From Gammaproteobacteria bacterium (lineage in GTDB: Bacteria; Pseudomonadota; Gammaproteobacteria; GCA-001735895): a stretch of 64,000 nt of DNA. The notes under the pieces were generated by a model, which did not search any database, had not been told where the DNA came from, and worked only from the letters and a program-made list of their open reading frames with translations. Location: positions 4,945 to 68,944 of the forward strand of contig JABHSO010000199.1 in NCBI GenBank assembly GCA_018669845.1, in the 5' to 3' direction. Positions 42,941 to 59,430 of the stretch are shown here, in pieces (the first letter of the stretch is position 1; every line of letters begins with the position of its first letter). A program made the position numbers and the translations under genes.

Positions 42941-42969
42941 TTTTATAACTCTTTCCTGGTAAGGTAGCG

Positions 42970-44226: not shown

Positions 44227-44228
44227 GA

Positions 44229-45807: not shown

Positions 45808-47235
45808 TTAACCGGAGTTTTCCAGCGGTTCTGTTTCCATGAAATCTTCGATATCAACTTCTTCGTTCTCTGTGCCACAGGGATCAACCATTTGGTGCTG
45901 TTTGATGATGCGTCTCAGACGGGGTCTGGATATTCCGAGAATTTTGCAGGTTTCTCCTTTATGCCAGTTAGTGAAGTTTAATACTCTGGCAACATGAATT
46001 TTTTCCATTTCTTCAAGGCTTGTTTGAACTGGCATACCCAGGTCGCTACTTTGTTCATGTTTCTCACTGATAAATTCTGGAATCAAGTCCAGTGTGATGG
46101 TGTCAGTGGGTGACAGGGCAACAGCTTTTGTCAGTACATTTTCAAGCTCGCGCACATTGCCTGGCCAGCGATAGCTGTTGAAGGAGTTAATAACTTCCAG
46201 AGACAGTCGGCAGACAGTATTGGACATTTCCCTGTTAATTCTCCCCAGTAAAGTTTGAATCAGATCCATCAGGTCTTCTTTACGTTCCCGTAAGGGTGGA
46301 ATATTGATATTGACAACTTGCAGCCTGTAAAAAAGATCTTCTCTGAATAATCCCAGTTTTACCTTTTCCTGAAGGTCATTATTGGTTGCAGCAATAATTC
46401 GGGCATTTGAATTAATGATTTTAGTGCCGCCCACGGGAATGTATTCTTTTTCCTGCAGTACGCGTAATAATTTTGCCTGGATTGCAGGTGATAGCTCACC
46501 CACTTCATCCAGAAAGAGGGTGCCATTTTCAGCCATGGCAAACTTGCCCATGTGTTTGTTGATGGCTCCAGTAAAAGCACCTTTTTCATGTCCAAATAAA
46601 TCGGACTCCAGCAGGCTTTCGACTAATGCAGCACAGTTTACCGCTACATAAGGTCCATCGGCACGATTGCTTGATTCGTGAATTGCCTTGGCGACCAACT
46701 CTTTACCAGTACCACTTTCACCCGTGACCAGGACGTTAATCGGTTTGTTTGCGATTAAACCGATAGTTTTATAAATCTCTCGCATCGCGCTGCTGTGACC
46801 GGCCATGCGATTTTGGTTATTCTGGGTTTTGTTGCTATCTTCTTCTGGAATCGACAGGTTGGTGTTTTCTTCGTTAGACCTGATTAACGTCCGCTCTACG
46901 GCCTGATCCAGTTCGTTGATATCGACCGGTTTATGTATGTAATCATCGGCACCATTTTGCATGGCAGCGATGGTTGTTTCCATATCATGATAGGCGGTGA
47001 TCATGATAATAGGGGTGCCGGGCACAACTTCCCGGAAATCGGGCAAGCTTTCAAGTCCTGATTTATTGGGCATCTGGTTATCGAGTATGATCAGGTCGAT
47101 TTCATTTGATGCAGCGGCCAGTAACCCATCATTGACACTATGGGCGGTGATTACATGATGAGACATACTGCTATAGTGCAATTGCAATGTTCGACATATA
47201 GCGATGTCATCATCAATAATCAGTAGTGTACTCAT
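45808..47235 (-). CDS. sigma-54-dependent response regulator (NtrC family)
   Basis: REC domain, AAA+ domain with Walker A GESGTGKE and the GAFTGA sigma-54 contact loop, and a C-terminal Fis-type HTH. Confidence 0.9.
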   Translation of the reverse strand: MSTLLIIDDDIAICRTLQLHYSSMSHHVITAHSVNDGLLAAASNEIDLIILDNQMPNKSGLESLPDFREVVPGTPIIMITAYHDMETTIAAMQNGADDYIHKPVDINELDQAVERTLIRSNEENTNLSIPEEDSNKTQNNQNRMAGHSSAMREIYKTIGLIANKPINVLVTGESGTGKELVAKAIHESSNRADGPYVAVNCAALVESLLESDLFGHEKGAFTGAINKHMGKFAMAENGTLFLDEVGELSPAIQAKLLRVLQEKEYIPVGGTKIINSNARIIAATNNDLQEKVKLGLFREDLFYRLQVVNINIPPLRERKEDLMDLIQTLLGRINREMSNTVCRLSLEVINSFNSYRWPGNVRELENVLTKAVALSPTDTITLDLIPEFISEKHEQSSDLGMPVQTSLEEMEKIHVARVLNFTNWHKGETCKILGISRPRLRRIIKQHQMVDPCGTENEEVDIEDFMETEPLENSG

Positions 47236-47290
47236 AACCTAATAAATCTCTGGAATGAAAAAACATAATACTCCTGGCGTAATGAATTAC

Positions 47291-50233
47291 TCATTGCGCT
47301 GGATCAATATTTAATTTAACTATAGCCGTAGTGCCTTCATTTTCTCCGGCCTGTAACTGCATACTGCCTTGCTGTAATTCTATAAATCGTTTTGCAATAG
47401 CGAGTCCAAGCCCAGTACCTTTGGCTCGACTGGTATAAAAAGGCTCAAACAATTCATCAACCTTATCATTATCGATTCCACAACCATTATCCTGAATGGT
47501 TATTTTTATATAGGAATTTGATTCAGTGAGGTCTAATTGAACGGTAATATTTATAACAGGTGTTACATCATGCAGTGTTTCTACTGACTGCATGGCGTTT
47601 GTTAACAGGTTAGATATGATCTGACGCAGTTTTCTTGAGTCAGCATTGATAATTGGCAAACCTTTTTCGTACCAGGTATTAATTTTAGCGTTAAATGAAT
47701 CAATGTCTTTCTGAACAAGTCCTATGCTGTGTTCAACCACTTTCTTAATCTCTACCCATTCGAGCTTAACGGCATCCGGGCGGGAATAACTCATTAAATC
47801 TTCCAGTATTTCTTCCATATAAAGTACTTGTTCGAGTGCTATCTGATTTATTTCAACAGCGTCATCATGGCTGATTTTGTTAGATTGTTTTTGAAAAATC
47901 TGTAAGCCCATTTTGATGGATGAAAGTGGGTTACGTAAATCATGGGCAATCATATTAGCCATTTTGCCAACGGTATTGAGAGCCTGGTTACGGCTTATTT
48001 CGTCATTACGTTGTAGCAGTTCCGTTTCCAGTTCTATGCGTGCGGTTAAATCAATAATGGCTGAGATATTTAATTTTCCTTCAAGCGTAGGGGCAGAGCT
48101 GAAACCTACTTCAACGGGAAACATTTCTCCTGACTTTTTATAAGCCAGGAAATCCATGCTATTGGTTGAATTTATAGCTGAATTGTCCAGTGTGTTTTGT
48201 TTTTGTGCTATCAACTGTTTGGATTCTGTATCATCAGGAATGATGATGTTGATTGCCTGACCTACCAGCTCTTCTTCTTTATAGCCATACAACTGTTGCA
48301 GGGTATCATTAGCGAGTAAAATTGCTCCGCTAGAGTCAGTCATGACCATCGCAACAGGTGCTGAATTGAAACAATGTTTAAAACGTTCTTCCAGCATTTT
48401 TTGTTCAGTAATATCTTCTTTGACGGCCAGAAAATGAGTAATTTCACCTTCCGGGTTTCGAATGCCAGAAATAGATGCTGATTCCCAGTAAAGCTCGCCA
48501 TTCTTTTTCCGGTTATGAAAAATTCCTCGCCAGGTTTTACCCTTTCTTACCGTGTTCCATAATCTAGAATAATCTTCTGGGCTTGTTTCACCCGATTTAA
48601 GTACACGGGGATTAAGTCCTTTAATATCATCGAGTTTGTAACCGGTTAAATGTTCAAATTTTGGGTTTATATATTCAATTTTGCCATGTTTATCCGTTAA
48701 CATGACAGAAGCAGGGCTTTGTTCTACTGCTTCAGAAAGGTGGCGAATTTTTATTTCGTTTTCACGATACTGGGTAATATCTTCACCCATAAATATCAGC
48801 CCAATTAAATTACCTTCGGTATCTGTCATCGAAGTGTCATGCCAGCGAATCAGATATTCTCGACCAACTTTATCCTGTAGCCAGCTTTCATGAGTGGATG
48901 TGCTTTTATTATCATCTTTAGACTGCTGGAATATTTTGGCGCAGGTATTTTTATAACGGTTAACAACTAGAGTTTCTATCCAGTTTTTGCCGATTAACTG
49001 ATTTCTTTTCCAGCCTAGTAAATTAAGTAGAGAATCGTTACAGAATGAAATGTTTCCCTGCAGATCAACTGCTAAAACGTTTAACTCAATAGATTCCAGA
49101 ACTTTTCTAAAGTGCTGCTCAAACTCTACCTGTATTTCTGCTATTTGATGATTCACTCTTAAGCGAGCAATGATATGTGTACCTATTAGAAACAATGTGA
49201 AAATAACCAGGTAAAAAAACATATTGTTTCGTACAAATATTTTAGGCAGGCTACTCAATTCGCTCGGTGAAATATGTGCGATCAGGTTCCATGGATGATT
49301 TAGGTATTCGAGTCTGGTCTGGCTCTGGTCATATTCTTTGCCCAAACCGGTAATCTCCAGTCCGGGGTATACTGTTGAATAGCTGAATAAGCCATTAGGT
49401 GTTTCAAACTGACCGGACTGATTGCTGGATACCTGTTTCCATTCTTTCTCAAAATCTGTTGCAAAACTTTGTTCCTGGCCAAGCATGAAACCCCATTCAA
49501 GATCACGATTATGGTGACTCAACCAGTAACCGTCATGATTCAGTAACATGACATTTTCTGAGATATTTGAGGTTGCCGTGCGAAAATTATTAAGCAAACG
49601 ATTACCCAGATAATTGAGGATTAGAACACCGACTTTGGACCCTTTGGAGTTGAAAACAGGCGTACCAAATCGAATGACAGGTTTTAGTGGAATTTGGATT
49701 TTCCCGTGTTCTACATTCAGGTCAAAAGGAGAAATATATATTTCATTACGTTTTAACTGGAAGCTTTCCTTAAAGTAATATCTATTTATCTTGTTTTGTA
49801 GACGGTCTTTTTCGACAATGATGGATTGCCCATTTTGATTGTTTATTCGAATTATTTCCTGACCATTGATATCGATGAATCGAATATGGTCATACACAAT
49901 TTTTTTATCTGAAAATAATTGAAAATCATTGGCTAAAATTGTTAGGTTAGTATCATTTAGCTGATCAAAATAACCGTGTAATTCGGCCTGGCGAGCCAGA
50001 AAATTAACATCAGACTGGATATTTGAAAGCTCAGTTACAATGCTGGTTTTACCGAGTTCCAAATTTAATAACTGTTGGCTATTGCGTTGGTTACTGGTGG
50101 TAGATATATAAATACTGTAGTGAATGGAAATAATAGTCAGAAGTATGATTGTGCAGATCAACGCATACCACAGGCTTTGCTGTAGTATTCTCTGGTTTTT
50201 GCTTAAATGGTGATCAGGGCTATGGCTTATCAT
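47291..50233 (-). CDS. sensor histidine kinase: periplasmic Cache-like domain, three PAS domains, HisKA-HATPase
   Basis: Two TM segments flank a periplasmic region of about 300 aa. Repeated PAS blocks. H-box MIAHDLRNPLSSI. G-boxes DNGCGI and GTGLGLAI. Confidence 0.85.
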   Translation of the reverse strand: MISHSPDHHLSKNQRILQQSLWYALICTIILLTIISIHYSIYISTTSNQRNSQQLLNLELGKTSIVTELSNIQSDVNFLARQAELHGYFDQLNDTNLTILANDFQLFSDKKIVYDHIRFIDINGQEIIRINNQNGQSIIVEKDRLQNKINRYYFKESFQLKRNEIYISPFDLNVEHGKIQIPLKPVIRFGTPVFNSKGSKVGVLILNYLGNRLLNNFRTATSNISENVMLLNHDGYWLSHHNRDLEWGFMLGQEQSFATDFEKEWKQVSSNQSGQFETPNGLFSYSTVYPGLEITGLGKEYDQSQTRLEYLNHPWNLIAHISPSELSSLPKIFVRNNMFFYLVIFTLFLIGTHIIARLRVNHQIAEIQVEFEQHFRKVLESIELNVLAVDLQGNISFCNDSLLNLLGWKRNQLIGKNWIETLVVNRYKNTCAKIFQQSKDDNKSTSTHESWLQDKVGREYLIRWHDTSMTDTEGNLIGLIFMGEDITQYRENEIKIRHLSEAVEQSPASVMLTDKHGKIEYINPKFEHLTGYKLDDIKGLNPRVLKSGETSPEDYSRLWNTVRKGKTWRGIFHNRKKNGELYWESASISGIRNPEGEITHFLAVKEDITEQKMLEERFKHCFNSAPVAMVMTDSSGAILLANDTLQQLYGYKEEELVGQAINIIIPDDTESKQLIAQKQNTLDNSAINSTNSMDFLAYKKSGEMFPVEVGFSSAPTLEGKLNISAIIDLTARIELETELLQRNDEISRNQALNTVGKMANMIAHDLRNPLSSIKMGLQIFQKQSNKISHDDAVEINQIALEQVLYMEEILEDLMSYSRPDAVKLEWVEIKKVVEHSIGLVQKDIDSFNAKINTWYEKGLPIINADSRKLRQIISNLLTNAMQSVETLHDVTPVINITVQLDLTESNSYIKITIQDNGCGIDNDKVDELFEPFYTSRAKGTGLGLAIAKRFIELQQGSMQLQAGENEGTTAIVKLNIDPAQ

Positions 50234-50245
50234 AAAATGAATTTT

Positions 50246-50590
50246 TTAATTACATTGATTAAGCATCAGGTAGTTTAATCGACGAAGATAATCCGGCTTG
50301 CTTTCATCCTGTTTCATGGGGTGCAGGAATAGTAATTTGGCTGCAATCATGGTTTGTCTGCGGTGTTCATTCTGAATGCTGGCTTCATCATCCAGTAATT
50401 TTGATAGTTGACGTAATGCCTGCTGCGGGTCTTTGCAAAAACGGGGCAGAGTTACATTACTGGCATACCACTGGGCCATCAGTGATACAGACAGTAGTGC
50501 AATTAAAACAGGGATAATAACTTTAAGGGGATTGAAAGGCGGTTTGATTTGCTCTTCAATCTGATCTTGTTGCTGAGCCTGTTGATTCAT
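50246..50590 (-). CDS. small single-pass membrane protein, unknown function
   Basis: ATG at 50588-50590 forms an ATGA overlap with the upstream stop. Translation MNQQAQQQDQ..., one TM helix (VIIPVLIALLSVSLMAQW). The longer ORF-track start lies inside the upstream gene. Confidence 0.5.
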   Translation of the reverse strand: MNQQAQQQDQIEEQIKPPFNPLKVIIPVLIALLSVSLMAQWYASNVTLPRFCKDPQQALRQLSKLLDDEASIQNEHRRQTMIAAKLLFLHPMKQDESKPDYLRRLNYLMLNQCN

Positions 50591-52005
50591 GACATGACTC
50601 GCTGAGCATGTACAGAAACTGCACTTTCTGTTTGATGTGTTTGTGCAGAGAGATTTGAGCAAACCTTATCTGCAACCGATTTAGACTGAATAATTCTATC
50701 TCGAATTGAAATTCCATTCAGAAAATTGGATACAAAATACAGCCCATTTGATTCACTGGCTTGTGATTCAATAGCTTTTGATAACTGGTAGTATTTACCA
50801 TGATATAGAGGTAAACCTTGATGATGACGGTTTATTCTGACCATTTCAGGTGACTGTTTAATACCGGTGAGTTTTTGTAAAGTGGCAAGTGTCTGGTCAA
50901 TTAATACATCATCAGAACTTTTAAGGGCATTTATCTGACAGCCACCGCCGACAAAATTGCTGGTGAGAATTTTATTTTCAGGTGCACGGTGATTGACCAG
51001 ATTACTCATCCAGAGACTGCCTCGTATAGCCATTTTTTCCCGGCTGGGAACCAGAAAGCCATTCCCATCCAGTGAGTTATTCAACCCTGTTTTATCAAAG
51101 CCCATGTGAATCTGGGCGATTGGGGCATATTCGATTTGATCTAGAAGTTCGGCAAGCTCTGTTTTAACGGGTTTAAGCAGTGATGATGATACGTTAGCCG
51201 GAGTAGAAAATATGACCTGTTTAGTCAAATACTGGTACTCGGTATTATTCACCTTGCTGGTTATTCTCCAGCCTGATTTTGCGGGTTCTATCGCTAAAAC
51301 CTGTTGCCCGGTATGAACATCGGTTAAAGGATTTTGGGAAAGCATATTGGTGAGTGTTTTCATGCCACCGTTAAATGAAAATGCTTCCTGAGGTAAACCT
51401 TTTTTGCCTGGTATGAATTTTTTAGTGATGATGCCAGCGGTAAAGCTACCAAAGTTTTTTTCCAGGGCTGTAAGCCGTGGCAAAGTACTACGGGCACAGG
51501 CTTTTTCTGGATCACAGGCGAGAACTGCTGAAACATAGGGATCTATAGCAAGATCCAGAATTTCCTGACCTAGTCTACGTCTGATAAAGTCAGCTACTGT
51601 TTCGGAATCTGAGTGGGAGCGAGACCTGAAAGGTTCGGACAGTAGTTTCAAACGGGTTTTTAATGAGAATAAATCTGAAAATAAAATGCCTCTGATGTTT
51701 TCTGGAATTTGTTGAAGACGGCTATTTTTTAATACATAACGTTTGGAAATTTTGTTCCTGTTGATTTTGTAATCCAGCAACCCTGAATGAGTCATAAACT
51801 TGCTGACCAGAGAATTAAAGTTGAGCACCATAGCTGCTGCATGGTCGGTCACATAACCATCCTGATTCGTCGTATCGATCAAACCACCGGTTTTGTAAGA
51901 CTGTTCCAGAATCGTTGAGCGAATGCCTTTTTGAGCTAACCACCAGGCTGATGATAATCCGGATATTCCACCACCAATAATCAGAACATCGGTATGCCTT
52001 ATCAT
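50587..52005 (-). CDS. FAD-dependent protoporphyrinogen/coproporphyrinogen oxidase-like enzyme (HemY/CgoX family)
   Basis: DVLIIGGGISGLSSAWWL...LEQSYKTGGLI FAD fold. ETVADFIRRRLGQEILDLAIDPYVSAV is collinear with HemY-type oxidases. Confidence 0.7.
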   Translation of the reverse strand: MIRHTDVLIIGGGISGLSSAWWLAQKGIRSTILEQSYKTGGLIDTTNQDGYVTDHAAAMVLNFNSLVSKFMTHSGLLDYKINRNKISKRYVLKNSRLQQIPENIRGILFSDLFSLKTRLKLLSEPFRSRSHSDSETVADFIRRRLGQEILDLAIDPYVSAVLACDPEKACARSTLPRLTALEKNFGSFTAGIITKKFIPGKKGLPQEAFSFNGGMKTLTNMLSQNPLTDVHTGQQVLAIEPAKSGWRITSKVNNTEYQYLTKQVIFSTPANVSSSLLKPVKTELAELLDQIEYAPIAQIHMGFDKTGLNNSLDGNGFLVPSREKMAIRGSLWMSNLVNHRAPENKILTSNFVGGGCQINALKSSDDVLIDQTLATLQKLTGIKQSPEMVRINRHHQGLPLYHGKYYQLSKAIESQASESNGLYFVSNFLNGISIRDRIIQSKSVADKVCSNLSAQTHQTESAVSVHAQRVMS

Positions 52006-53300
52006 GGATTTTCACCTGATTCTGAATCTGAATTGGTGACCGTTTGGGGGCGTTTCCAGGGTAGATTATTACCAAAACGTTTAGCTGAAAGTTGCTGCAT
52101 ATGAGCAATGGTGATTAATTCTTCACCCAGATCCAGAACATAAGTTTCTGTTCTCTTTTTAACCATGTTACGAATGAAGCCGGGAATACGGTTAAGTTTT
52201 TTGCTGGCATCATCTGACCAGATTAAATTTGCAGTTTCAAAATCAGTAACAGGTTCGATAATGTCACCATGGTGAGGAATATAACCACAGGATGTATCTT
52301 CATCCATCAGTTGTTTGCCTGCTGCGAGTGGCCTGGCGCGACAACCTCCACACAGTTTTTGAAACTCACACTCTCCGCATTTTCCGGTTAACTGCGGGTT
52401 TCTTAGCGAGAGGAAATCTTCAGCGGTATTCCAGATGGTTTGAAAATCCTGTTGTTTGATATTGCCGACAGTTTTTTCGATATACGGGCAGGCAGTTACA
52501 TCACCTTCGGGTGTTACACGACAATAATGAGTGCCAGCGATACAGCCATCGCCTTCCTGCCCACTGATTCGATTAAGAGCAGATTCGGGAGCCATTTGCC
52601 AGGCCACTCTTTTGAAATAGGGCGCACAACGAGGACGAATTATCAGGTTTTCATATTTGTTCTGACATTCGATGATTTTTTTGATGCCTGCTTCATAATT
52701 GACAGTAGAAATATTACCGACCGATTCGGCACGTCCTGTACAGATAATGAAAAAGAAATTAACCACTCTGGCACCGGACATTTCGGCGAAGTTAATAATA
52801 TCTTCAATTTCGTGGTGGTTATCATCAGTAATGGAAAAATGTATTTGAAAATCCAGCTGGTGTTTGCGGCAGTGTTCAATGCCTGACATGGTTTTCAACC
52901 AGCTTCCAGTTTGCCCTCTGAAAGCATCATGACGAGCAGGATCAAGTGAGTCGACACTGATACCAATGCCCATAGCACCTGCATTTTTAAGAGAGATAAC
53001 ACGACGTTCGGTAAGCAAAGCACCATTACTGCCGATGACAACCATTAGTCCGAGTGATTTACCGTGGCTACAAAGCTGTTCCAGATCTGTTCTAATCAAA
53101 GGCTCACCACCGGTTAGAACAATCATGGTGCCTTCATGGTGTTGGGCTATTTGATCGAGCAGATCTTTTACATCCTGAGTTGATAATTCATTTGCAGAAG
53201 GTGTGTTTAGTTCATCAGCATCCAGATAACAATGCTCGCAGGAAAGGTTACACCGTCTGGTCAGGTTGATTGCAATAATCTGGAGTTGATTAGTGTCCAT
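52002..53300 (-). CDS. NirJ/AhbC/AhbD-type radical SAM (SPASM) enzyme with a C-terminal PCP_red-like module
   Basis: CNLSCEHCY radical SAM cluster, FFFIICTGR, RCAPYFKR, GCIAGTHYCRVTPEGDVTACP and CGECEFQKLCGGCRAR (SPASM). Residues ~361-405, WSDDASKKLNRIPGFIRNMVKKRTETYV, match the BchB C-terminal domain motif. Confidence 0.8.
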   Translation of the reverse strand: MDTNQLQIIAINLTRRCNLSCEHCYLDADELNTPSANELSTQDVKDLLDQIAQHHEGTMIVLTGGEPLIRTDLEQLCSHGKSLGLMVVIGSNGALLTERRVISLKNAGAMGIGISVDSLDPARHDAFRGQTGSWLKTMSGIEHCRKHQLDFQIHFSITDDNHHEIEDIINFAEMSGARVVNFFFIICTGRAESVGNISTVNYEAGIKKIIECQNKYENLIIRPRCAPYFKRVAWQMAPESALNRISGQEGDGCIAGTHYCRVTPEGDVTACPYIEKTVGNIKQQDFQTIWNTAEDFLSLRNPQLTGKCGECEFQKLCGGCRARPLAAGKQLMDEDTSCGYIPHHGDIIEPVTDFETANLIWSDDASKKLNRIPGFIRNMVKKRTETYVLDLGEELITIAHMQQLSAKRFGNNLPWKRPQTVTNSDSESGENP

Positions 53301-53317
53301 CGTCTAAAAGATTTTCT

Positions 53318-53405
53318 CACCGCAAAGGACGCTAAGGTACGCAGAGGAAACCAACATTAAATTGTTTTGTTTTTCCTTTGCGAACCTTAGCGTCCTCTGC
53401 GGTAA
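53318..53405. repeat. REP-like family C inverted repeat (CGCAGAGGA-type sub-repeats)
   Basis: tcaccgcaaaggacgctaaggtacgcagaggaa and its inverted partner ttcctttgcgaaccttagcgtcctctgcggtaa: about 31-bp arms with 3 mismatches. Lies between the Usp/PCP_red gene and the radical SAM gene. Confidence 0.85.
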
Positions 53406-53421
53406 AAATGGTTTTTTACAG

Positions 53422-55548
53422 TTAAGCATTATTCCTCGGATCATCTGGATCCAGGTGAAATTGCTTGCTTTGGCTCCATTTGCCTTTAATGGCTTCGACT
53501 ATTTCCAGGGTAATTTCAGTTTTGTTGTTTTGGTTCGCCCAGGTTTCTATCTCATGCACTAATATGCCTCTCACCATGTCCGGGGCATTGGCAATGCTGT
53601 CTCTGGCATCTTGTTGCCAGTCGAGAGTTTCAACGACTTTAGCGGAGCCTTTCTGGAAAGTTTCCAGAGTAGACTTAATGAACTCTTTGTCTATTGACGG
53701 TAAGCCCATTTTACTGGCGATTGTTTCCATTGCATTAACGGTCATGTCTCGGCAGTAACCTTCAGGAACATTGTTTAATAATTTTTTACTGCCTTGTAGC
53801 CATTCTACTGTTGAAGCTGTTTCTTCCTGTTCCAGAGTCATTCCTGCAAACGGGCATTTACTGGCTTTTTTCGGAGCTGGCTTTTCCCCGCTTTTTACCT
53901 GTTGTTCCATGGCCAGACGAGATATTTCCAGACCCTTTTCGGCTACTTCGAGAGATATGCTGGTGATGTTGTTGTCAGTGGCATAACTTTCAATATTTCT
54001 TTTTGCCGCATCTCGCATAAATCCTTCGGGTGCACGCATCAGTCTGGCTATGGCAGCTGTTTCCCAACGTAAGTGTTCATTGTTTTGCTGTTGAACAAAG
54101 GTTTTAATATGTTGTGTGTCGACCTGAAAGGTTTTATCGGCACGGGCTTTTTTCTCTGCCCGACCTTTAATATTCTCTCTTAATGATGGGTCAGTTATTG
54201 ATTGTAATAACTCTTCTGCTTCACCTGTCCAGGTCATGGGTTTCGTAGTGACAGAAGTTTTAAGCTCACCACGGTCAGCAGCTTCGACGATTTCCTGTAT
54301 GGCATTTTCTGCATGACCTGGCATCAGCTCGGCTGTGGCGGCTTCTACAATACTTTCGGTGATGACGGTATGACCTTTTTCCTGGGCATAGCGTAATATC
54401 GCCATTTTGGCCATAGGGCGGACAAAAACGGGGACTTTTAACATACGTTTCTCTGCTTCAACTGACCAGGACGTGGTTGCCGCAGCGATTCTTTCAATAC
54501 GGGGTTGATGCTCCTGCATGCCGAGCAAAATGGAGCAATTGATATTGCGCAATAAATTTTCGGCATTGCCGCCTATATCCAGTTCCGGATCGGCGTGTAT
54601 CCCCAGTTTTCCAATAATCAGTAATGATGCATTGACCTCGGCTACATATTTTTCAATAGCATCGTAGGCTTTACCATCGAGTAATTTAGTGTCAATGCTA
54701 ATGCCATAATCTTCAGCAATGGATTCAGCAACATCAAGATGTCCCTGATAAATTTTAGCCAGACCTGAATCGATAATGTCTTCGTGCAGTTTTTCCTGTT
54801 CCTTGAATTTGAAAACCTTTCCGGCTTCTTCTGATAGTACGTCGGCAATTTTATTAAAGGCGACATAGTGATAATAAGGATCGAAGGTTGAAATAACCTT
54901 GAGTTCTACGTTCCATTGTTGTGATAGTGAAAATGCGCTGAGCAGGGCACCATAGGATTTTCTGGAGCCATCGATTGCAACGACGATGGGACCTTTACTG
55001 ATTAATTTTTGTGGCTGCTTAATGACCAGTGTATCAATATTTGTTCTGCGCACTGTCCTGTCACAAACGGTACCTATCCGGCTTCCTTCTATAGCACCGA
55101 CACCAATAGAACCTAAAATCAGCAGATCATAATCACCTTTGTTGGCTTCATTCACTAAAGCGCGGTAGTTTTTTCCTTCGAGAGATGAACGGTAAAATTC
55201 TATGCTCTCCAGGTGACACTGTTTATCAATTTGATCCAGATAAGATTCGGTGATGATCGACAAGCCCCGGGTGATCAAGTCATCATGAACTTCGCGTTGG
55301 TGTTCCAGTTCCTGTTCAACTCTATATTGTTCGGGTAAACCACCTTCCATTTGACGAAAACGTATATCATGCATTTTGGCTGCGTAGGCATGAGTTCCCG
55401 TTATTTTACTGCCCCAGGCTTTTGCCAGCTGGACTGATTCCACTATGGCCTGGTTAGAATGATCGGATGAATCTACAGCTACCAGAATAGACTGGTATCG
55501 GGTTAATGGGTCGAGGGATTCATCTTGTTGAGGTGCTGTAGCCGTCAT
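53422..55548 (-). CDS. two universal-stress-protein (Usp) domains followed by five PCP_red-like (BchB C-terminal) modules
   Basis: Usp-like blocks at ILVAVDSSDHS...LLILGS and IVVAIDGSRKS...LLIIGK. Five repeats begin at W361, W440, W495, W583 and W644 with the pattern W-x2-(E/D)-A-x3-L-x3-P-x3-R. Confidence 0.75.
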   Translation of the reverse strand: MTATAPQQDESLDPLTRYQSILVAVDSSDHSNQAIVESVQLAKAWGSKITGTHAYAAKMHDIRFRQMEGGLPEQYRVEQELEHQREVHDDLITRGLSIITESYLDQIDKQCHLESIEFYRSSLEGKNYRALVNEANKGDYDLLILGSIGVGAIEGSRIGTVCDRTVRRTNIDTLVIKQPQKLISKGPIVVAIDGSRKSYGALLSAFSLSQQWNVELKVISTFDPYYHYVAFNKIADVLSEEAGKVFKFKEQEKLHEDIIDSGLAKIYQGHLDVAESIAEDYGISIDTKLLDGKAYDAIEKYVAEVNASLLIIGKLGIHADPELDIGGNAENLLRNINCSILLGMQEHQPRIERIAAATTSWSVEAEKRMLKVPVFVRPMAKMAILRYAQEKGHTVITESIVEAATAELMPGHAENAIQEIVEAADRGELKTSVTTKPMTWTGEAEELLQSITDPSLRENIKGRAEKKARADKTFQVDTQHIKTFVQQQNNEHLRWETAAIARLMRAPEGFMRDAAKRNIESYATDNNITSISLEVAEKGLEISRLAMEQQVKSGEKPAPKKASKCPFAGMTLEQEETASTVEWLQGSKKLLNNVPEGYCRDMTVNAMETIASKMGLPSIDKEFIKSTLETFQKGSAKVVETLDWQQDARDSIANAPDMVRGILVHEIETWANQNNKTEITLEIVEAIKGKWSQSKQFHLDPDDPRNNA

Positions 55549-55590
55549 AGAATTGCTTATCCAGTTCAGGGGATTGATTAAACCTGGCTA

Positions 55591-55710
55591 TTAACCAAAT
55601 AAAACCCAGTATCCAAAAAGATAGGTAATTACCAGAATATTGATTGCAGCACCGGCAAAAACAAAATAATCAAAACCTGTCAGGTTCTGTAACCACTTAA
55701 ATTGAGTCAT
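55591..55710 (-). CDS. possible 39-aa single-TM peptide
   Basis: MTQFKWLQNLTGFDYFVFAGAAINILVITYLFGYWVLFG, located 42 nt upstream of the Usp/PCP_red gene. No clear Shine-Dalgarno sequence. Below the ORF-track cut-off. Confidence 0.25.
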   Translation of the reverse strand: MTQFKWLQNLTGFDYFVFAGAAINILVITYLFGYWVLFG

Positions 55711-55726
55711 AGAGATAAATATATTT

Positions 55727-55796
55727 TTACCACGAAGTACACGAAGAGCACGAAGAAAATATTGGTGAATAGTTAAATATTTTTCTTCGTGTCTTC
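55727..55796. repeat. REP-like family B with an inverted arm
   Basis: ttaccacgaagtacacgaagagcacgaagaaaa (three tandem CACGAAG sub-units) and the inverted ttcttcgtgtcttc at 55783-55796. Confidence 0.8.
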
Positions 55797-55816
55797 AGTA
55801 TATTTCGAACCTGGTC

Positions 55817-56557
55817 TTATTTCTTTTTAAACATAAAATCAACAGTTTGGGAATCTCCCCCTGCTATTGTTGCTTTACCTTTTTGAGTTCCGAGAGTTCC
55901 GTGGAAAGCTCTTACTTTATATTTTCCGGCTGGAATATTGTCAATGGTGTAACTTCCATCGTCAGCTACTTGTGCGTAGTAAGGGTTTTTTGCAACGAAT
56001 ACAAAACCGTGCATGAAATCATGGGCGTCACATTCGATTTTCATGCCCACACCACGTTTAAGTTTGATTTTTTTGTTGATGGTGCCTTTATCGGGTTGAC
56101 TGATATTCATTACAGTCTTTTTCGCTTTACCGATAATTTCATAGCTGTGGATATTATGCAGTACGGGATCTTCATTGATGATGGCCGCATTGCCTTCGTT
56201 GTGCATGATTTGCATGTAAGGCAGAAATTCACAACCTTGCTGTAAAATTTTAGAGTCTGAATTCGCCTCATTAAATGCTTTACCTTGCTTTACTTTATCC
56301 AGGTAAACAACGACGTCAGTTAAAGCTCCGCCGTTAACTCTTACGTAATCTATTTCGCGGTTACCCGTTCCACAAACGTCGTTATCTTTTGAAATTTTGA
56401 ATACCAAAGGAGAGGGATCTTTACCCGTGAATGATACTTTACCGGAAATGCTTCCTCCGTTGGCAACGTCAACAACTTTATATTTTGCAGCCAGTACAGC
56501 CGGGCTAGTGCTTATGGCCAAAGTGAGGCCTGCGATTATAGATAGATTTTTAAACAT
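55817..56557 (-). CDS. periplasmic amicyanin-like type-1 copper (cupredoxin) protein with flanking beta-sandwich domains
   Basis: Signal peptide ending VLA-AK. Copper-ligand contexts PVLHNIHSY and IECDAHDFMHG (C-x2-H-x2-M) parallel amicyanin MPHNVHF and HCTPHPFM. C-terminal DDGSYTIDNIPAGKYKVRAF is a carboxypeptidase-regulatory-like fold. Confidence 0.65.
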   Translation of the reverse strand: MFKNLSIIAGLTLAISTSPAVLAAKYKVVDVANGGSISGKVSFTGKDPSPLVFKISKDNDVCGTGNREIDYVRVNGGALTDVVVYLDKVKQGKAFNEANSDSKILQQGCEFLPYMQIMHNEGNAAIINEDPVLHNIHSYEIIGKAKKTVMNISQPDKGTINKKIKLKRGVGMKIECDAHDFMHGFVFVAKNPYYAQVADDGSYTIDNIPAGKYKVRAFHGTLGTQKGKATIAGGDSQTVDFMFKKK

Positions 56558-56590
56558 ATGTTTTCACCTTAAGTTTTACAAATTTTAGTT

Positions 56591-59026
56591 TTATGATGCT
56601 TCTGCTAGTGGAACAGTTCGGTACATTTCTTCAAGCATTTCAATAGCAAATCGTCTTTCATAGCTTGTGGGTAAGTCAGAGAGTAACTCAACCAACCTTG
56701 CCGTACCCTGAACAGGTTCGATGGCTTTTAGAACCAATGCCATGTCACGTGTTCTGCCACCCTGATTATTAAAAGGGCATTGAACAATTTGCTCTATAGC
56801 TTTCGCCATTAATTCCTGTTGCTGATTAATTTCTTCTGCCATGAGACAGAGTTTAAGATTGTTTACTGCACTATAACGAACGCCTGGATCTTTGTCCTGA
56901 AGCAGGTCGATTAAAACATTGACCCATTCGGTCAGGTTTATTGGCATTTCAGGAACATGTGCATTTTTAAGCAGTTCGTCGCCGTTTAACTCTAGCTCGG
57001 TAATGGATTCTATTGCCTGGATGCGAATCGCTGTGCGATTATGCTCGAAGGCGGTCATTAAAATGGGTATGGCAGCCCTGTTATGAATTGTGCCCAGAGC
57101 CTTGATGCAAGCAAGTTTCAAATCCCATTGCTCATTATGGAATTGGGTGATCAGGCCGCCGTAAGCATATTCGATACCGCCAATTTTGGGATTATCCATG
57201 GCTATTTGTGCAATAGAATCGGCAGCATAGGTACTAAGCTTTATGTCAGCTGAGTTCAGTGCTGTGACCAGGCTATCAACAGTCCGTTTTGCTTTGTCTT
57301 CATTCAAATGGTCAGGCAGTTTTGCAAGTATTTTTGCAGCCAGATGTTGTACATCCTGGGCCACGGAGATTTCTTCATTTTTGTTTTTAAACAGCCATTC
57401 ACTTTTAGTGACATTATCCTGTACAAGATTATGAAATTCCTGCATCTCGGGATCTTCTTCGGTTTCTGGCTCTGCCTGATTTTCCTGTTGCTGCTGGTTT
57501 TGTTCAACAAACAGACTATCCTGCATGATTGATTCCAGAGTCGATAATGCTTCAGCCGGTGCAGCTTCTTCTACTGATTCATCCTCAGTTGCAGATTGTT
57601 CTGTATCTTCTGATGTGTTTTCAGTCTGCTCGGGCAATAAAGAAGATACTTCAATTTCCAGAACCACACGGCCATTTAAAGTCTCGTTGATGATATCTAT
57701 CGGTGTTTTAACTTGAGTCGAATCTAACTCTGTATGTTCGATACTTTTTTCCATGTCCATCAGTGCCTGCAAGGTTGTAAGCCTGATGGGTTGATCGTTA
57801 TGATTAATCAAACGGGTCATTATTCGAGATATATTGACGTTCCATCTGGATATCTGTGCCAAAGTACTGATGCAGGTTCTAAGGATTTTTTCTGAGATTT
57901 TAGGTCTTGATATAAGTTGTATCAGGCTCGCTTCTGAAGATTCTTTATTCGTTAATTTCAGTAATAAAGGTATTGCAGCGAGGATCACTATTTCATTTTG
58001 GTCATTAAATGCTGTAGTGATATGGTCCAGCAATTCTTCATCACTGAGATTGACGTCTTCAGCCTGTAGAGATTGTAAATAGGTCGATCTAACATCTGCG
58101 TCTGGATCGTTAAGTAAACGCTCATTTCCCTTGTCATCGGTTTTTTCCGATTTAACACCAGCACTCAGAGAGTTATAAGCAATAATTGCGGCTTGACGTA
58201 CTTTTTCAGAACGATCTTTTTTTAATAACTCAATGGCTGGCAGGTATTTGGTTGCCTTTCTTGTCACCATGGCCTGCAGTGCATAAAGACGAACATCTTC
58301 AGATGCATCGGTAAAAGCTGAGGATAATGCTTTTAATGATTTTTTAGTGGAGGAAAATGATAATGCGTAAGCGGCTCTTCTTCGTGTAAGAGCAGATGCT
58401 TCTTTCAAAAGCCCAGTGACTCTTTGTTCTCCCTCTTCTCCAATATTGACCAGTGCATTGAGAATGACATGTTCAATATCGAGAACATCATCACTTTCGA
58501 GTAAATTCATTAATACCTGAGTGGCCGGCTGTGCTTTCATTTTACCCAGAGCCAGTACAGCTTCTTTCTGCATATCCCACCAGTCATCCCAGTCTTCATT
58601 GCTATCAATAATCATATCTTCAGGATGATGCTCGGCAATTTCTATCAGAATGGGGATACTGGTAGGGCTTTTTATATCACCCAGTGCTTTAACGATAGCT
58701 GTTTTCAACTCTCCATCAGGGTCATTCTTTAATGACTCTATCAATTGGGGCACGACATGAGTGGCATTTAACTTACCCAGTGCTTCTGCTGCATCGATAC
58801 AGACATCAATATCTTCATCCCGTAATTTTATGACAAGATCATTAATGGCTTCAGTTGCACCAATGGTGCCTAGAGCGCGGCTGGCATTACATTTATCGAC
58901 TTCATCGCCATTGTTTAACAAATCTCGTAAGCTGTGAACGACATTAGCTCTTGACTCATTTGACGTTTCGATAGAACTATCTGAATTTGTTGTATCGATA
59001 GAGCTATCTGTATCTGCTGTTAACAC
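56591..59026 (-). CDS. large cytoplasmic HEAT-repeat (PBS-lyase-type) protein with an acidic central linker
   Basis: GTG start. Recurrent ~30-aa repeats of the type D-x-D-V-R-x-x-A-x-x-A-L-G. Acidic Glu/Gln-rich insert near residues 455-530. Confidence 0.7.
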   Translation of the reverse strand: MLTADTDSSIDTTNSDSSIETSNESRANVVHSLRDLLNNGDEVDKCNASRALGTIGATEAINDLVIKLRDEDIDVCIDAAEALGKLNATHVVPQLIESLKNDPDGELKTAIVKALGDIKSPTSIPILIEIAEHHPEDMIIDSNEDWDDWWDMQKEAVLALGKMKAQPATQVLMNLLESDDVLDIEHVILNALVNIGEEGEQRVTGLLKEASALTRRRAAYALSFSSTKKSLKALSSAFTDASEDVRLYALQAMVTRKATKYLPAIELLKKDRSEKVRQAAIIAYNSLSAGVKSEKTDDKGNERLLNDPDADVRSTYLQSLQAEDVNLSDEELLDHITTAFNDQNEIVILAAIPLLLKLTNKESSEASLIQLISRPKISEKILRTCISTLAQISRWNVNISRIMTRLINHNDQPIRLTTLQALMDMEKSIEHTELDSTQVKTPIDIINETLNGRVVLEIEVSSLLPEQTENTSEDTEQSATEDESVEEAAPAEALSTLESIMQDSLFVEQNQQQQENQAEPETEEDPEMQEFHNLVQDNVTKSEWLFKNKNEEISVAQDVQHLAAKILAKLPDHLNEDKAKRTVDSLVTALNSADIKLSTYAADSIAQIAMDNPKIGGIEYAYGGLITQFHNEQWDLKLACIKALGTIHNRAAIPILMTAFEHNRTAIRIQAIESITELELNGDELLKNAHVPEMPINLTEWVNVLIDLLQDKDPGVRYSAVNNLKLCLMAEEINQQQELMAKAIEQIVQCPFNNQGGRTRDMALVLKAIEPVQGTARLVELLSDLPTSYERRFAIEMLEEMYRTVPLAEAS

Positions 59027-59060
59027 AATGTAATACCTGAATTAGAATTTAGCCATATTA

Positions 59061-59076
59061 AGCATAAATAGTGCCA
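59061..59076 (-). promoter_or_regulatory. sigma-54 (-24/-12) promoter for the HEAT-repeat gene string
   Basis: The minus strand reads TGGCAC TATTT ATGCT (consensus TGGCAC-N5-TTGCW). The -12 GC lies about 35 nt upstream of the GTG at 59026. Confidence 0.65.
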
Positions 59077-59164
59077 ATAAAAAGTTGTTACTAATTAACT
59101 CATTGAAAGATAGGATATTAATTGCATTTTACAGGTTCGGTTTTGCGTTGGCGTATGTGTTCAA

Positions 59165-59279
59165 TTGAATGAATTGTTCTATTCATTTTGAACGTAAATT
59201 ACAGTTGAACAAAACGTTCAATTTATAAGGGTGGCATGATTTGATCAGCTGAATTGGGCATTTTGAACATTTCGTTAAT
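59165..59279. promoter_or_regulatory. three 6-N5-6 inverted repeats (TTGAAC-N5-GTTCAA), candidate enhancer-binding-protein sites
   Basis: TTGAATgaattGTTCTA (59165-59181), a perfect TTGAACaaaacGTTCAA (59205-59221) and TTGAACatttcGTTAAT (59263-59279). All lie between the two divergent sigma-54 promoters. Confidence 0.55.
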
Positions 59280-59413: not shown

Positions 59414-59430
59414 TGGCAAGAAAATTGCAT
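59414..59430 (+). promoter_or_regulatory. sigma-54 (-24/-12) promoter for the bd-like/cytochrome c operon
   Basis: TGGCAA GAAAA TTGCAT: near-consensus spacing and elements, 31 nt upstream of the ATG at 59461. Confidence 0.7.

What the first reader, a model, noticed from the sequence alone, without database searches (positions are those of the whole stretch)
45808..59076. Tetrapyrrole-themed gene string behind a sigma-54 promoter, ending in its own kinase/NtrC pair
All genes from 59026 down to 45808 are on the minus strand with short gaps. In order they are:
- a HEAT-repeat protein of the PBS-lyase type, the family that includes bilin lyases;
- an amicyanin-like cupredoxin;
- a 2xUsp protein carrying five copies of the BchB C-terminal (PCP_red) module, which in protochlorophyllide reductase helps cap the porphyrin pocket;
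- a NirJ/AhbC/AhbD-type radical SAM enzyme (haem d1 / alternative haem pathway family) carrying a sixth PCP_red module;
- a HemY/CgoX-like porphyrinogen oxidase;
- a small membrane protein;
- a Cache-PAS histidine kinase;
- a GAFTGA-containing NtrC-type activator.

Four independent gene products therefore point at binding or modification of a tetrapyrrole. The string is divergently paired with a haem-rich bd-like/cytochrome c operon. I cannot assign it to any pathway I know (not Ahb, not Nir, not Hem). One hypothesis is a dedicated cofactor modification, delivery or quality-control system for the neighbouring respiratory module. This is the strongest candidate in the window for an undescribed system.
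Basis: partly seen in the sequence, partly recalled or inferred. Interest (0 to 1): 0.82.

Follow-up and report, generated by a model that had tools for sequence, protein, structure and literature searches.

The report
Haem-tailoring operon beside bd-like oxidase
A conserved, sigma-54-controlled set of genes that look like haem-processing and haem-carrying proteins sits next to an uncharacterised "bd-like" respiratory oxidase in hundreds of sulfur- and iron-oxidising bacteria, which suggests that this oxidase needs its own, so far undescribed, cofactor-maturation system.

Summary
All domain calls hold, with small corrections.

The minus-strand string encodes:
- a HEAT/PBS-type repeat protein;
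- a secreted cupredoxin-like protein;
- a tandem-Usp protein with five BchB-C-terminal (PCP_red) modules;
- an AhbD/NirJ2-like radical SAM/SPASM enzyme with a sixth module;
- a HemY-family oxidase;
- a small membrane protein;
- a PAS histidine kinase;
- a GAFTGA sigma-54 activator.

It diverges from an OR-N2 "bd-like" CydA operon with c-type cytochromes.

The Usp-PCP_red, radical SAM and HemY genes are adjacent in every related locus with enough sequence: radical SAM 65/65, HemY 55/59. A bd-like oxidase lies within 10 kb in 30/36. In Beta/Zetaproteobacteria and SAR324 the accessory genes are collinear with the oxidase genes.

Two divergent sigma-54 promoters and a shared TTGAAC repeat are conserved across loci.

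Best reading: a dedicated tetrapyrrole processing and hand-off module for this respiratory complex. The link is well supported. The chemistry is inferred. I found no paper describing it.

Caveats:
- Nitrospirota keep only the Usp-PCP_red/radical SAM pair, away from bd-like genes.
- Beta/Zeta loci place a clade III N2O reductase next to the trio.

The parts
59061..59076 (-). sigma-54 (-24/-12) promoter of the accessory operon, TGGCACTATTTATGCT, 35 nt upstream of the HEAT gene start
   Evidence: An equivalent element faces the HEAT gene in 23 of 31 related divergent loci, against a chance expectation of about 0.05 per strand.
59159..59268 (.). Cluster of five TTGAAC/GTTCAA hexamers between the two promoters; candidate enhancer (UAS) for the in-cluster NtrC-type activator
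   Evidence: 5 copies in 110 bp against 0.86 per kb across the window. It is the most recurrent hexamer in the 31 homologous intergenic regions. Binding by the activator is inferred.
59414..59429 (+). Second sigma-54-type promoter, TGGCAAGAAAATTGCA, 32 nt upstream of the first micro-ORF of the bd-like operon
   Evidence: Conserved facing the bd-like operon in 24 of 31 loci.
56591..59026 (-). 811-aa HEAT-repeat protein with PBS-lyase-type repeats
   Evidence: Ortholog present in 38/59 loci and next to the Usp-PCP_red gene in SAR324 (27% identity, E 5e-57).
55817..56557 (-). 246-aa secreted cupredoxin-like protein (type-1 copper ligand set H134, C176-x2-H179-x2-M182) with a C-terminal CarboxypepD_reg/Ig-like domain
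   Evidence: Fold not confirmed: the single-sequence model was unusable.
55591..55710 (-).
   Evidence: Conserved in nearly all Gamma-type loci with a DY...G.IN..V....GYW signature.
53422..55548 (-). 708-aa tandem-Usp protein with five PCP_red (BchB C-terminal) modules and an invariant Cys565-Pro-Phe in the linker between modules 3 and 4
52002..53300 (-). 432-aa AhbD/NirJ2-like radical SAM/SPASM enzyme with one C-terminal PCP_red module. This is the short form; the family median is 677 aa with four modules.
50587..52005 (-). 472-aa HemY-family FAD-dependent porphyrinogen oxidase (PgoX/CgoX type)
50246..50590 (-). Small (about 114 aa from ATG 50590) single-helix membrane protein with two conserved cysteines; its start overlaps the HemY stop codon
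   Evidence: Present in 36 loci.
47291..50233 (-). 980-aa sensor histidine kinase: periplasmic Cache-like sensor, three PAS domains, HisKA, HATPase
   Evidence: Syntenic in 31/43 loci together with the activator.
45808..47235 (-). 475-aa NtrC-type sigma-54 activator (receiver, AAA+ with GAFTGA, Fis-type HTH)
59461..59622 (+). 53-aa micro membrane protein, first gene of the bd-like operon
   Evidence: Conserved in related loci.
59771..59905 (+). 44-aa micro membrane protein
59926..61812 (+). 628-aa CydA-like 'bd-like' subunit of the OR-N2 type: no Q-loop match, roughly a dozen hydrophobic segments, His102 equivalent to His19 of CydA, seven invariant histidines
61812..62678 (+). 288-aa dihaem c-type cytochrome (CXXCH at residues 72 and 212)
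62681..64000 (+). N-terminal 440 aa of a membrane-anchored multihaem cytochrome c. Full-length relatives are about 800 aa and end in an EbdC-like haem b domain. The gene runs off the window.

Best explanation
The minus-strand string is the accessory and regulatory half of a two-operon respiratory island. The other half encodes an OR-N2 'bd-like' CydA complex with c-type cytochromes.

Proposed mechanism:
1. The kinase and its NtrC-type partner activate both divergent sigma-54 promoters from shared TTGAAC sites. The signal is probably oxygen or redox state, sensed through the PAS domains. This step is inferred from the conserved promoters and repeats.
2. Within the accessory operon, three cytoplasmic proteins form a tetrapyrrole processing and hand-off module.
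   - The AhbD/NirJ2-like radical SAM enzyme remodels propionate side chains of a haem-type tetrapyrrole. Its nearest relatives convert propionate to vinyl.
   - The HemY-family flavoenzyme carries out the porphyrinogen-to-porphyrin ring oxidation.
   - The PCP_red modules hold the tetrapyrrole between steps and deliver it to the membrane complex. Five sit on the ATP-binding tandem-Usp protein and one to four on the radical SAM.
   - The chemistry is inferred from family membership only.
3. The product may be ordinary haem b made by a private route, or a modified haem.
4. The HEAT protein is likely a scaffold or chaperone.
5. The secreted cupredoxin-like protein and the three micro membrane proteins are likely redox-partner or subunits of the complex.

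What is shown: domain identities, gene order, its conservation, and promoter conservation. What is inferred: substrate, product, carrier function, and which protein receives the cofactor.
For: **Domain identities** hold.

**Spread.** The Usp-PCP_red protein is 55-60% identical over 700 aa across Gamma-, Beta-, Zeta- and Alphaproteobacteria. 440 confirmed matches were found among species-representative genomes.

**Adjacency**:
- radical SAM 65/65;
- HemY 55/59;
- bd-like within the fetched flanks 30/36.

**Gene order.** The recurrent neighbour families are exactly the window's genes.
- Gammaproteobacteria keep the window's divergent layout, for example Endoriftia.
- In Gallionella, Nitrosomonadales and Mariprofundus the trio lies downstream of the bd-like and cytochrome genes on the same strand.
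- In SAR324 the order is bd-like, cytochromes, radical SAM, PCP_red-only, Usp-PCP_red, HEAT, all on one strand. Orthology there is 36-49% identity.

**Taxonomic overlap.** The Usp-PCP_red family is also found in Nitrospirota, Manganitrophaceae and Nitrospinota. These are the phyla where OR-N oxidases are prevalent.

**Co-regulation.** Sigma-54 promoters face both operons in most loci, and a shared hexamer repeat is conserved.

**Radical SAM.** It keeps CX3CX2C and 7-8 SPASM cysteines. It scores far higher against AhbD/NirJ2 (277-308 bits) than against peptide maturases (150 bits or less).

**Precedent.** AhbD/NirJ/AhbC all tailor ring A/B side chains of iron tetrapyrroles (PMC7242693). AhbD is known to pair with HemY-type CgoX in some CPD-pathway bacteria (PMC13564367). 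HemQ/AhbD are largely absent from proteobacteria that use the classical pathway (PMC5095920), so this pair is not expected housekeeping there.
Against: - No experiment bears on any step.
- The radical SAM fails the equivalog cutoffs for AhbD, NirJ and NirJ2, so its substrate is open.
- No ferrochelatase or other haem gene recurs in the loci.
- HemY is absent from the SAR324 and Nitrospirota versions.
- In Nitrospirota the Usp-PCP_red/radical SAM operon is not within 10 kb of a bd-like gene. In one Nitrospinota contig Usp-PCP_red stands alone.
- In 6 of 36 well-flanked proteobacterial loci no bd-like gene is nearby.
- In Beta/Zeta loci a clade III N2O reductase and a cytochrome c lie between the oxidase genes and the trio. 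In L022 they are present without a bd-like gene. The client could therefore be a wider respiratory island.
- That PCP_red binds tetrapyrrole outside DPOR is untested. Its role in capping the BchB substrate pocket is my recollection of the DPOR structures, not checked here.
Confidence: 0.55

Rival explanations
1. Private supply line, nothing exotic. The radical SAM is a true coprohaem (or coproporphyrinogen) decarboxylase. HemY is a standard coproporphyrinogen or protoporphyrinogen oxidase. Together they are an alternative late haem b branch, co-induced to meet the haem demand of a haem-rich complex at low oxygen. The PCP_red proteins only stabilise or regulate the enzymes.
For: - AhbD and NirJ2 are the top hits.
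- HemY passes the protoporphyrinogen oxidase model.
- AhbD is known to serve the CPD pathway alongside CgoX in some Gram-positive bacteria.
- In Nitrospirota the pair sits apart from oxidase genes, as a housekeeping operon might.
- HemY appears only in the proteobacterial versions. That would fit hosts which lack a coproporphyrin branch.
Against: - An essential housekeeping step would not be expected behind a sigma-54 two-component switch shared with one oxidase.
- The radical SAM scores well below the AhbD equivalog cutoff (277 against 500).
- The tight collinearity with OR-N2 genes in three classes and in SAR324 is not explained by bulk supply.
- No ferrochelatase travels with the genes.
Confidence: 0.22
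2. Peptide or protein maturation. The SPASM radical SAM modifies a peptide or an oxidase subunit, for example one of the three micro membrane proteins, or installs a cross-link. PCP_red modules would act as peptide-recognition domains and HemY as a follow-up oxidase, on the pattern of PQQ or mycofactocin biosynthesis.
For: - SPASM enzymes are mostly peptide maturases. PqqE, MftC and sactipeptide maturase models all give significant though weaker hits.
- Three conserved micro-ORFs lie in the island.
- PQQ and mycofactocin clusters share the same logic of radical SAM, oxidase and small binding protein. This comparison is from my own knowledge.
Against: - AhbD/NirJ2 scores are 2-3 times higher than any peptide maturase score.
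- HemY passes a porphyrinogen oxidase model.
- PCP_red is known only from a tetrapyrrole enzyme.
- The micro-ORFs are hydrophobic single helices. They are absent beside the Nitrospirota Usp-PCP_red/radical SAM operons.
- The bd-like subunit has no conserved cysteine.
Confidence: 0.1
3. Sensor or regulator. The Usp-PCP_red protein is an ATP- and haem-sensing regulator of respiratory-complex assembly. The neighbouring enzymes are unrelated housekeeping genes retained by chance linkage.
For: - Usp proteins are usually nucleotide-binding regulators.
- The ATP motif G-x2-G-x9-G-T is intact in the first Usp domain, and a Cys-Pro motif is invariant.
Against: - Adjacency with the radical SAM in 65/65 loci, extending across phyla, is far beyond chance linkage.
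- PCP_red modules are shared between the Usp protein and the enzyme, which argues for a physical or functional partnership.
Confidence: 0.08

Closest known systems
AhbD (haem b synthase) and NirJ/AhbC radical SAM enzymes of the siroheme-dependent haem and haem d1 pathways
   Same: - Radical SAM core plus a SPASM domain with two auxiliary-cluster cysteine sets.
- They are the top profile hits (NirJ2 308 bits, AhbD 277 bits).
- nirJ also lies beside its client enzyme gene nirS, so the genomic logic is alike.
   Different: - Scores fall below every equivalog cutoff.
- The enzyme carries one to four PCP_red modules.
- No ahbA/B/C or nirDLGH/F/N partners are present.
- The host is a proteobacterium with a HemY gene alongside.
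Terminal steps of the coproporphyrin-dependent pathway (CgoX/HemY with AhbD replacing ChdC in some Gram-positive bacteria)
   Same: A HemY-family oxidase paired with an AhbD-type oxygen-independent decarboxylase.
   Different: - No coproporphyrin ferrochelatase in the cluster.
- Found in Proteobacteria.
- Conditionally expressed from a sigma-54 promoter next to one respiratory complex.
- Extra Usp-PCP_red and HEAT proteins.
- The HemY is slightly closer to M. xanthus PgoX than to B. subtilis CgoX (184 against 141 bits).
C-terminal domain of BchB/ChlB of dark-operative protochlorophyllide reductase (Pfam PCP_red)
   Same: Same roughly 45-residue helical module, by sequence profile in both directions.
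   Different: - No nitrogenase-like domains and no BchL/BchN.
- The module is arrayed five times on a tandem-Usp protein and appended to a radical SAM.
- The organisms are not phototrophs.
OR-N2 subfamily of the cytochrome bd superfamily (Murali et al. 2021); 'TO_1'-type bd-like terminal oxidase clusters of Nitrospirota
   Same: - A CydA-like subunit with the His19 equivalent and no quinol-binding loop.
- The operon has several c-type cytochromes and an EbdC-like haem b domain.
   Different: - Those descriptions do not mention the Usp-PCP_red, radical SAM, HemY or HEAT genes or the sigma-54 control.
- I could not run their HMM classifier.
CtaA/CtaB haem o and haem a synthases encoded with aa3-type oxidases
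   Same: Works like it in concept: haem-tailoring enzymes dedicated to one oxidase family and encoded beside it.
   Different: Unrelated protein families and chemistry. CtaA and CtaB are membrane enzymes, whereas the enzymes here are soluble and carry carrier-like modules.

Membership tests
AhbD haem b synthase (TIGR04545) | Radical SAM CX3CX2C motif plus a SPASM domain with cysteines for two auxiliary clusters | tested here: met
   C17, C21 and C24 are conserved. So are C253, C260, C271, C308, C311, C317 and C320. Pfam Radical_SAM and SPASM both match.
AhbD haem b synthase (TIGR04545) | Score at or above the curated equivalog cutoff (500 bits) | tested here: not met
   277 bits. NirJ2 TIGR04055 gives 308 against a cutoff of 500. 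Orthologs in SAR324 and Nitrospira score 300-331, also below cutoff.
AhbD haem b synthase (TIGR04545) | Converts Fe-coproporphyrin III to haem b | not testable with these tools
   Needs an enzyme assay.
NirJ haem d1 enzyme (TIGR04051) | Equivalog score and nir gene context | tested here: not met
   160 bits against a cutoff of 515. No nirS/F/D/L/G/H/N recurs in 80 loci.
HemY family (PgoX/CgoX, TIGR00562) | Curated model cutoff, N-terminal FAD-binding GxGxxG, and full-length similarity to solved PPOs | tested here: met
   255 bits against a cutoff of 98. GGGISG at residues 11-16. M. xanthus PPO 2ivd aligns over residues 6-450 at E 3e-53.
HemY family (PgoX/CgoX, TIGR00562) | Substrate: protoporphyrinogen IX or coproporphyrinogen III | tested here: inconclusive
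   The score is somewhat higher to PgoX of M. xanthus (184 bits) than to B. subtilis CgoX (141 bits). That does not decide the substrate.
PCP_red (BchB/ChlB C-terminal domain, PF08369) | Pfam gathering score and reciprocal match to the BchB C-terminus | tested here: met
   127 and 49 bits against a cutoff of 32.5. The window-module profile hits 2xdq_B, 3aek_B, 2ynm_D and 8vqi_B at their C-termini.
DPOR subunit B (TIGR01278) | Nitrogenase-like catalytic domains and equivalog score | tested here: not met
   69 bits against a cutoff of 490. Only the last 55 profile positions match.
Tandem universal stress protein | Two Usp domains, the Usp fold, and the ATP motif G-x2-G-x9-G-(S/T) | tested here: met
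   Pfam finds Usp twice. Foldseek matches Rv2623 and TTHA0350 with target TM 0.7-0.8. The motif G146..G149..G159-T160 is invariant. The second domain has G-G instead of G-S/T.
Cytochrome bd superfamily, OR-N2 subfamily | CydA N-terminal four-helix core with the His19 equivalent | tested here: met
   Pfam Cyt_bd_oxida_I matches residues 91-345. The alignment to 5doq and 9r2g places H102 on the His19-equivalent histidine of those CydA chains. H102 is invariant.
Cytochrome bd superfamily, OR-N2 subfamily | No quinol-binding loop; about 14 helices; operon with several cytochromes c and an EbdC homolog | tested here: met
   The match to CydA stops before the Q-loop region. A crude hydropathy count gives about 12-14 segments. 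Operon content was checked.
Cytochrome bd superfamily, OR-N2 subfamily | Assignment by the authors' subfamily HMMs; oxygen reductase activity | not testable with these tools
   The HMMs are not available here. Activity has not been shown for any OR-N2 member in the sources I read.
Sigma-54 regulon with an NtrC-type two-component system | -24/-12 promoter; activator with receiver, AAA+ GAFTGA and HTH domains | tested here: met
   Sigma-54 dependence in vivo was not tested.
Cupredoxin (type-1 copper, amicyanin-like) | Cupredoxin fold with His, Cys, His, Met ligands | tested here: inconclusive
   The ligands are invariant and align with those of amicyanin, but hhalign probability is only 35% and the PDB profile E-value is 0.73. 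There is no Pfam hit. The structure model failed at pLDDT 38.
Phycobiliprotein lyase (CpcE/F, NblB) | Equivalog-level similarity, not just HEAT_PBS repeats | tested here: not met
   NblB 75 bits against 300 and CpcE 52 against 330. Only the repeat type is shared.

The most novel reading that the evidence does not exclude
OR-N2 'bd-like' complexes use a haem derivative that has not been described, one that is not haem b, d, o, a or d1. They are the presumed terminal oxidases of Nitrospira, Manganitrophus and many sulfur and iron oxidisers. The cofactor would be made from a late haem intermediate by the AhbD-like radical SAM, with HemY in Proteobacteria. A new kind of tetrapyrrole carrier built from arrayed BchB-type capping modules on an ATP-binding Usp scaffold would then hand it over. 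These genes would then be the missing requirement for producing active OR-N enzymes in a heterologous host.
Probability: 0.22. Interest if true: 0.92.

Novelty: new variant of a known kind. Interest (0 to 1): 0.76.

Why it matters
Bd-like (OR-N) complexes are the presumed oxygen-reducing enzymes of nitrite, manganese, iron and many sulfur oxidisers. No member has been characterised biochemically in the sources I read, and their cofactors are unknown.

A conserved, co-regulated set of tetrapyrrole-type enzymes and carrier-like proteins next to them gives a concrete, testable reason why. It also gives a gene list to co-express.

The finding would add a new use of the AhbD/NirJ enzyme family. It would also give a first functional context for PCP_red modules outside chlorophyll synthesis.

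The adjacency to clade III N2O reductase in iron oxidisers further suggests that the island matters for low-oxygen and N-oxide respiration.

Tried and rejected
1. **HemJ replacement in Nitrospirota.** I asked whether the CopD-like membrane protein that follows the radical SAM in Nitrospirota is a HemJ-type protoporphyrinogen dehydrogenase standing in for HemY. It matches only CopD and DUF4149, with no HemJ hit even at E 10. Left open, not supported.
2. **RiPP precursor.** The 39-aa ORF between the cupredoxin and Usp genes could have been a precursor peptide. It is a conserved hydrophobic single helix and is absent from the Nitrospirota operons. A micro-subunit is the more likely reading.
3. 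**Covalent haem attachment by the HEAT 'lyase'.** The bd-like subunit has no conserved cysteine.
4. **Conserved NapF-like ferredoxin as electron donor.** The gene at 45133-45618 has no counterpart in any related locus.
5. **Structure of the cupredoxin-like protein.** The single-sequence model had pLDDT 38 and was not used.
6. **Foldseek on the whole Usp-PCP_red model** (pLDDT 71). It recovered only tandem Usp proteins. The PCP_red part was confirmed by sequence profile instead.
7. **Internal sigma-70 promoters or terminators.** Counts are at or below the shuffle background.
8. **Literature.** Ten full-text searches found no paper that links these accessory genes to bd-like oxidases. The bd superfamily paper and the Manganitrophaceae paper do not mention them. 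Subscription-only papers were not searched, including any primary paper on clade III NosZ.
9. **Reaching Nitrospira OR-N2 from the bd-like query.** The top 120 hits were all close relatives.

Full report
**1. What is in the window**

Eight ORFs lie head to tail on the minus strand between 59026 and 45808.
- an 811-aa HEAT protein with PBS-lyase-type repeats;
- a 708-aa protein with two Usp domains and PCP_red modules;
- a 432-aa radical SAM/SPASM enzyme with a PCP_red tail. Its best models are NirJ2 (308 bits) and AhbD (277 bits), both below the 500-bit equivalog cutoffs;
- a 472-aa HemY-family oxidase (TIGR00562, 255 bits against a cutoff of 98). Its closest solved relative is M. xanthus protoporphyrinogen oxidase at E 3e-53;
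- a small membrane protein;
- a Cache-like/PAS x3 histidine kinase;
- an NtrC-type activator with GAFTGA.

The five modules of the Usp protein and the one on the radical SAM align with a shared W..A...L...P.F.R signature. A profile built from them finds the last 45 residues of BchB/ChlB in every solved DPOR structure.

The 246-aa secreted protein has no family hit. Its invariant H134, C176, H179 and M182 line up with the four copper ligands of amicyanin, at weak significance.

I add a conserved 39-aa membrane ORF at 55591-55710. I also move the likely start of the small membrane protein to ATG 50590.

**2. The divergent partner**

The plus-strand operon encodes the following:
- two micro membrane proteins;
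- a 628-aa CydA-like protein that matches only the N-terminal half of cytochrome bd subunit I;
- a dihaem cytochrome c;
- a membrane-anchored multihaem cytochrome that runs off the window.

Full-length relatives of the last protein end in an EbdC-like haem b domain. An SCO1 copper chaperone follows them.

This matches the published description of OR-N2 operons in the cytochrome bd superfamily: no quinol site, about 14 helices, several cytochromes c and an EbdC homolog. His102 aligns with the His19-equivalent histidine of solved CydA and is invariant. Six further histidines are invariant, and no cysteine is.

**3. Conservation**

The Usp-PCP_red protein has thousands of relatives. They are 55-60% identical across sulfur- and iron-oxidising Gamma-, Beta-, Zeta- and Alphaproteobacteria. 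A scan of species-representative genomes confirmed 440 matches, and I fetched 80 loci.

Unsupervised clustering of all ORFs in these loci returns the window's own gene set as the recurrent families. Using only loci with enough flanking sequence:

| Gene | Loci with it |
|---|---|
| radical SAM following the Usp gene | 65/65 |
| HemY | 55/59 (two of the four misses are divergent HemY copies) |
| bd-like gene within the fetched flanks | 30/36 |
| HEAT | 38/59 |
| cupredoxin-like | 43/69 |
| kinase plus activator | 31/43 |

Gammaproteobacteria, including Endoriftia, Sedimenticola and Thiodiazotropha, keep the exact divergent layout of the window.

Gallionella, Nitrosomonadales and Mariprofundus place the trio downstream of the bd-like and cytochrome genes on the same strand. 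They lack HEAT, cupredoxin and the regulators.

**4. Beyond Proteobacteria**

A search with the module profile shows that arrayed PCP_red proteins mostly combine with Usp. They also combine with a rubredoxin-like insert or with radical SAM/SPASM.

The Usp-PCP_red family extends to Nitrospirota, Manganitrophaceae, Nitrospinota, SAR324 and Binatia.

In SAR324 the order is cytochromes, bd-like, cytochromes, radical SAM-PCP_red, a PCP_red-only protein, Usp-PCP_red-rubredoxin and HEAT, all on one strand and without HemY. Identity to the window proteins is 27-49%.

In four Nitrospirota-type contigs the operon is Usp-PCP_red, radical SAM-PCP_red, sometimes a PCP_red-only protein, and a CopD-like membrane protein. 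No bd-like gene lies within 10 kb.

The cross-phylum core is therefore the Usp-PCP_red protein plus the AhbD-like radical SAM. HemY, HEAT, the cupredoxin and the two-component system are lineage additions.

The usual proteobacterial radical SAM is 677 aa with four modules. This looks like a fusion with the PCP_red-only protein. The window's lineage has the short form, and no separate copy exists in the window.

**5. Regulation**

The intergenic region holds two sigma-54-type promoters, one facing each operon. Such elements occur in 23 and 24 of the 31 homologous divergent regions, where chance predicts about 0.05 per strand.

Between them lie five TTGAAC/GTTCAA hexamers. This is the most recurrent hexamer across the 31 regions.

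No excess of sigma-70-like promoters or terminators is seen inside the string.

The simplest reading is that the in-cluster NtrC-type pair drives both operons. This is inferred.

**6. How it most likely works**

AhbC, AhbD and NirJ all remodel ring A/B side chains of iron tetrapyrroles. AhbD performs the same propionate-to-vinyl conversion as coproporphyrinogen dehydrogenase (PMC7242693).

AhbD is known to complete the coproporphyrin pathway next to HemY-type CgoX in some Gram-positive bacteria (PMC13564367). HemQ/AhbD are largely absent from proteobacteria that use the classical route (PMC5095920).

An AhbD-like enzyme plus a HemY in Proteobacteria, switched on together with one respiratory complex, is therefore best read as a dedicated late tetrapyrrole module for that complex.

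The PCP_red modules are shared between the enzyme and the ATP-binding Usp scaffold. They are otherwise known from the part of BchB that, as I recall from the DPOR structures (not checked here), closes over the bound pigment. They are the obvious candidates for holding and passing on the intermediate.

The invariant Cys-Pro-Phe sits where relatives carry a rubredoxin-like insert. It may bind haem or a metal.

Whether the product is ordinary haem b or a new derivative cannot be decided here.

**7. Rivals and caveats**

A plain alternative haem b branch, co-induced for supply, remains possible. It fits the Nitrospirota context. It fits poorly with sigma-54 control and with the tight collinearity elsewhere.

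A peptide-maturation role for the SPASM enzyme is less likely given the score pattern.

One observation widens the picture. In ten Beta/Zeta loci the gene just upstream of the trio, with a cytochrome c between them, is a clade III lactonase-type N2O reductase (NCBIfam 753 bits against a cutoff of 700). One such locus has no bd-like gene within 10 kb.

The client may thus be a low-oxygen/N-oxide respiratory island rather than the bd-like subunit alone. The function of OR-N2 itself, oxygen reduction or something else, is unproven.

**8. Novelty**

The bd-like family and each protein superfamily are known. The combination, its spread, the arrayed PCP_red carrier-like protein and the shared sigma-54 control were not found in any paper I could search (papers read).

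I rate it a new variant of a known kind: cofactor-tailoring genes encoded beside their client enzyme, as with nirJ and nirS or ctaAB and aa3 oxidases.

Noticed in passing
window 55591-55710 (-): Unlisted 39-aa single-helix ORF between the cupredoxin-like gene and the Usp-PCP_red gene. It is conserved in nearly all Gamma-type loci. With the 53-aa and 44-aa ORFs of the plus operon, the island has three micro membrane proteins.
   Followed up: yes
L014, L018, L022, L025, L026, L034, L052, L060, L064, L071 (e.g. L071:6984-8762): In Beta- and Zetaproteobacterial relatives a clade III lactonase-type N2O reductase lies just upstream of the Usp-PCP_red/radical SAM/HemY trio, with a 320-aa cytochrome c between them. 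It scores 753 bits on NCBIfam L-NosZ (cutoff 700) and has a CuA motif. It is 73-94% identical between the two classes. It is absent from the window.
   Followed up: partly
window 52002-53300 (-) versus e.g. L028:12267-14300: The window's radical SAM is a short form with one PCP_red module. The family norm is about 677 aa with four modules, apparently a fusion with the PCP_red-only protein that is a separate gene in SAR324 and Manganitrophaceae. No separate copy exists in the window.
   Followed up: yes
L084:7225-9807, L088:5615-8128: In Nitrospirota-type contigs the Usp-PCP_red/radical SAM operon lies beside methyl-plastoquinone biosynthesis genes (MpqE 400 bits, cutoff 335, and a B12-type radical SAM). 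A CopD-like 153-175-aa membrane protein follows it.
   Followed up: partly
window 53422-55548 (-), residue C565; relatives such as P0241 residues 605-633: An invariant Cys-Pro-Phe sits in a disordered linker between modules 3 and 4. Non-proteobacterial relatives carry a rubredoxin-like domain between PCP_red modules, apparently at the same place.
   Followed up: partly
window 59926-61812 (+): The bd-like subunit has seven invariant histidines (H102, H212, H268, H300, H403, H420, H569), more than the haem ligands expected from CydA. Relatives have an SCO1 copper chaperone downstream. A copper site is conceivable.
   Followed up: no
window 45133-45618 (+): An orphan NapF-type ferredoxin gene (TIGR00402, 106 bits against a cutoff of 102) diverges from the activator gene, with no nap genes beside it. 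It is not conserved in related loci.
   Followed up: partly
window 40286-44810 (-): A 2-oxoacid:ferredoxin oxidoreductase gene set (POR gamma, POR_N/PFOR_II, TPP-binding subunit) together with a 548-aa pyridine-nucleotide-disulfide oxidoreductase that has Fe-S domains.
   Followed up: no
window 126-4969 and 8964-16244: Phenylacetate catabolism genes (PaaH, PaaG, PaaY, PaaX), a TRAP transporter, GGDEF/EAL proteins and a histidine kinase with a C-terminal hemerythrin domain. The host is therefore not a strict minimal chemolithoautotroph.
   Followed up: no
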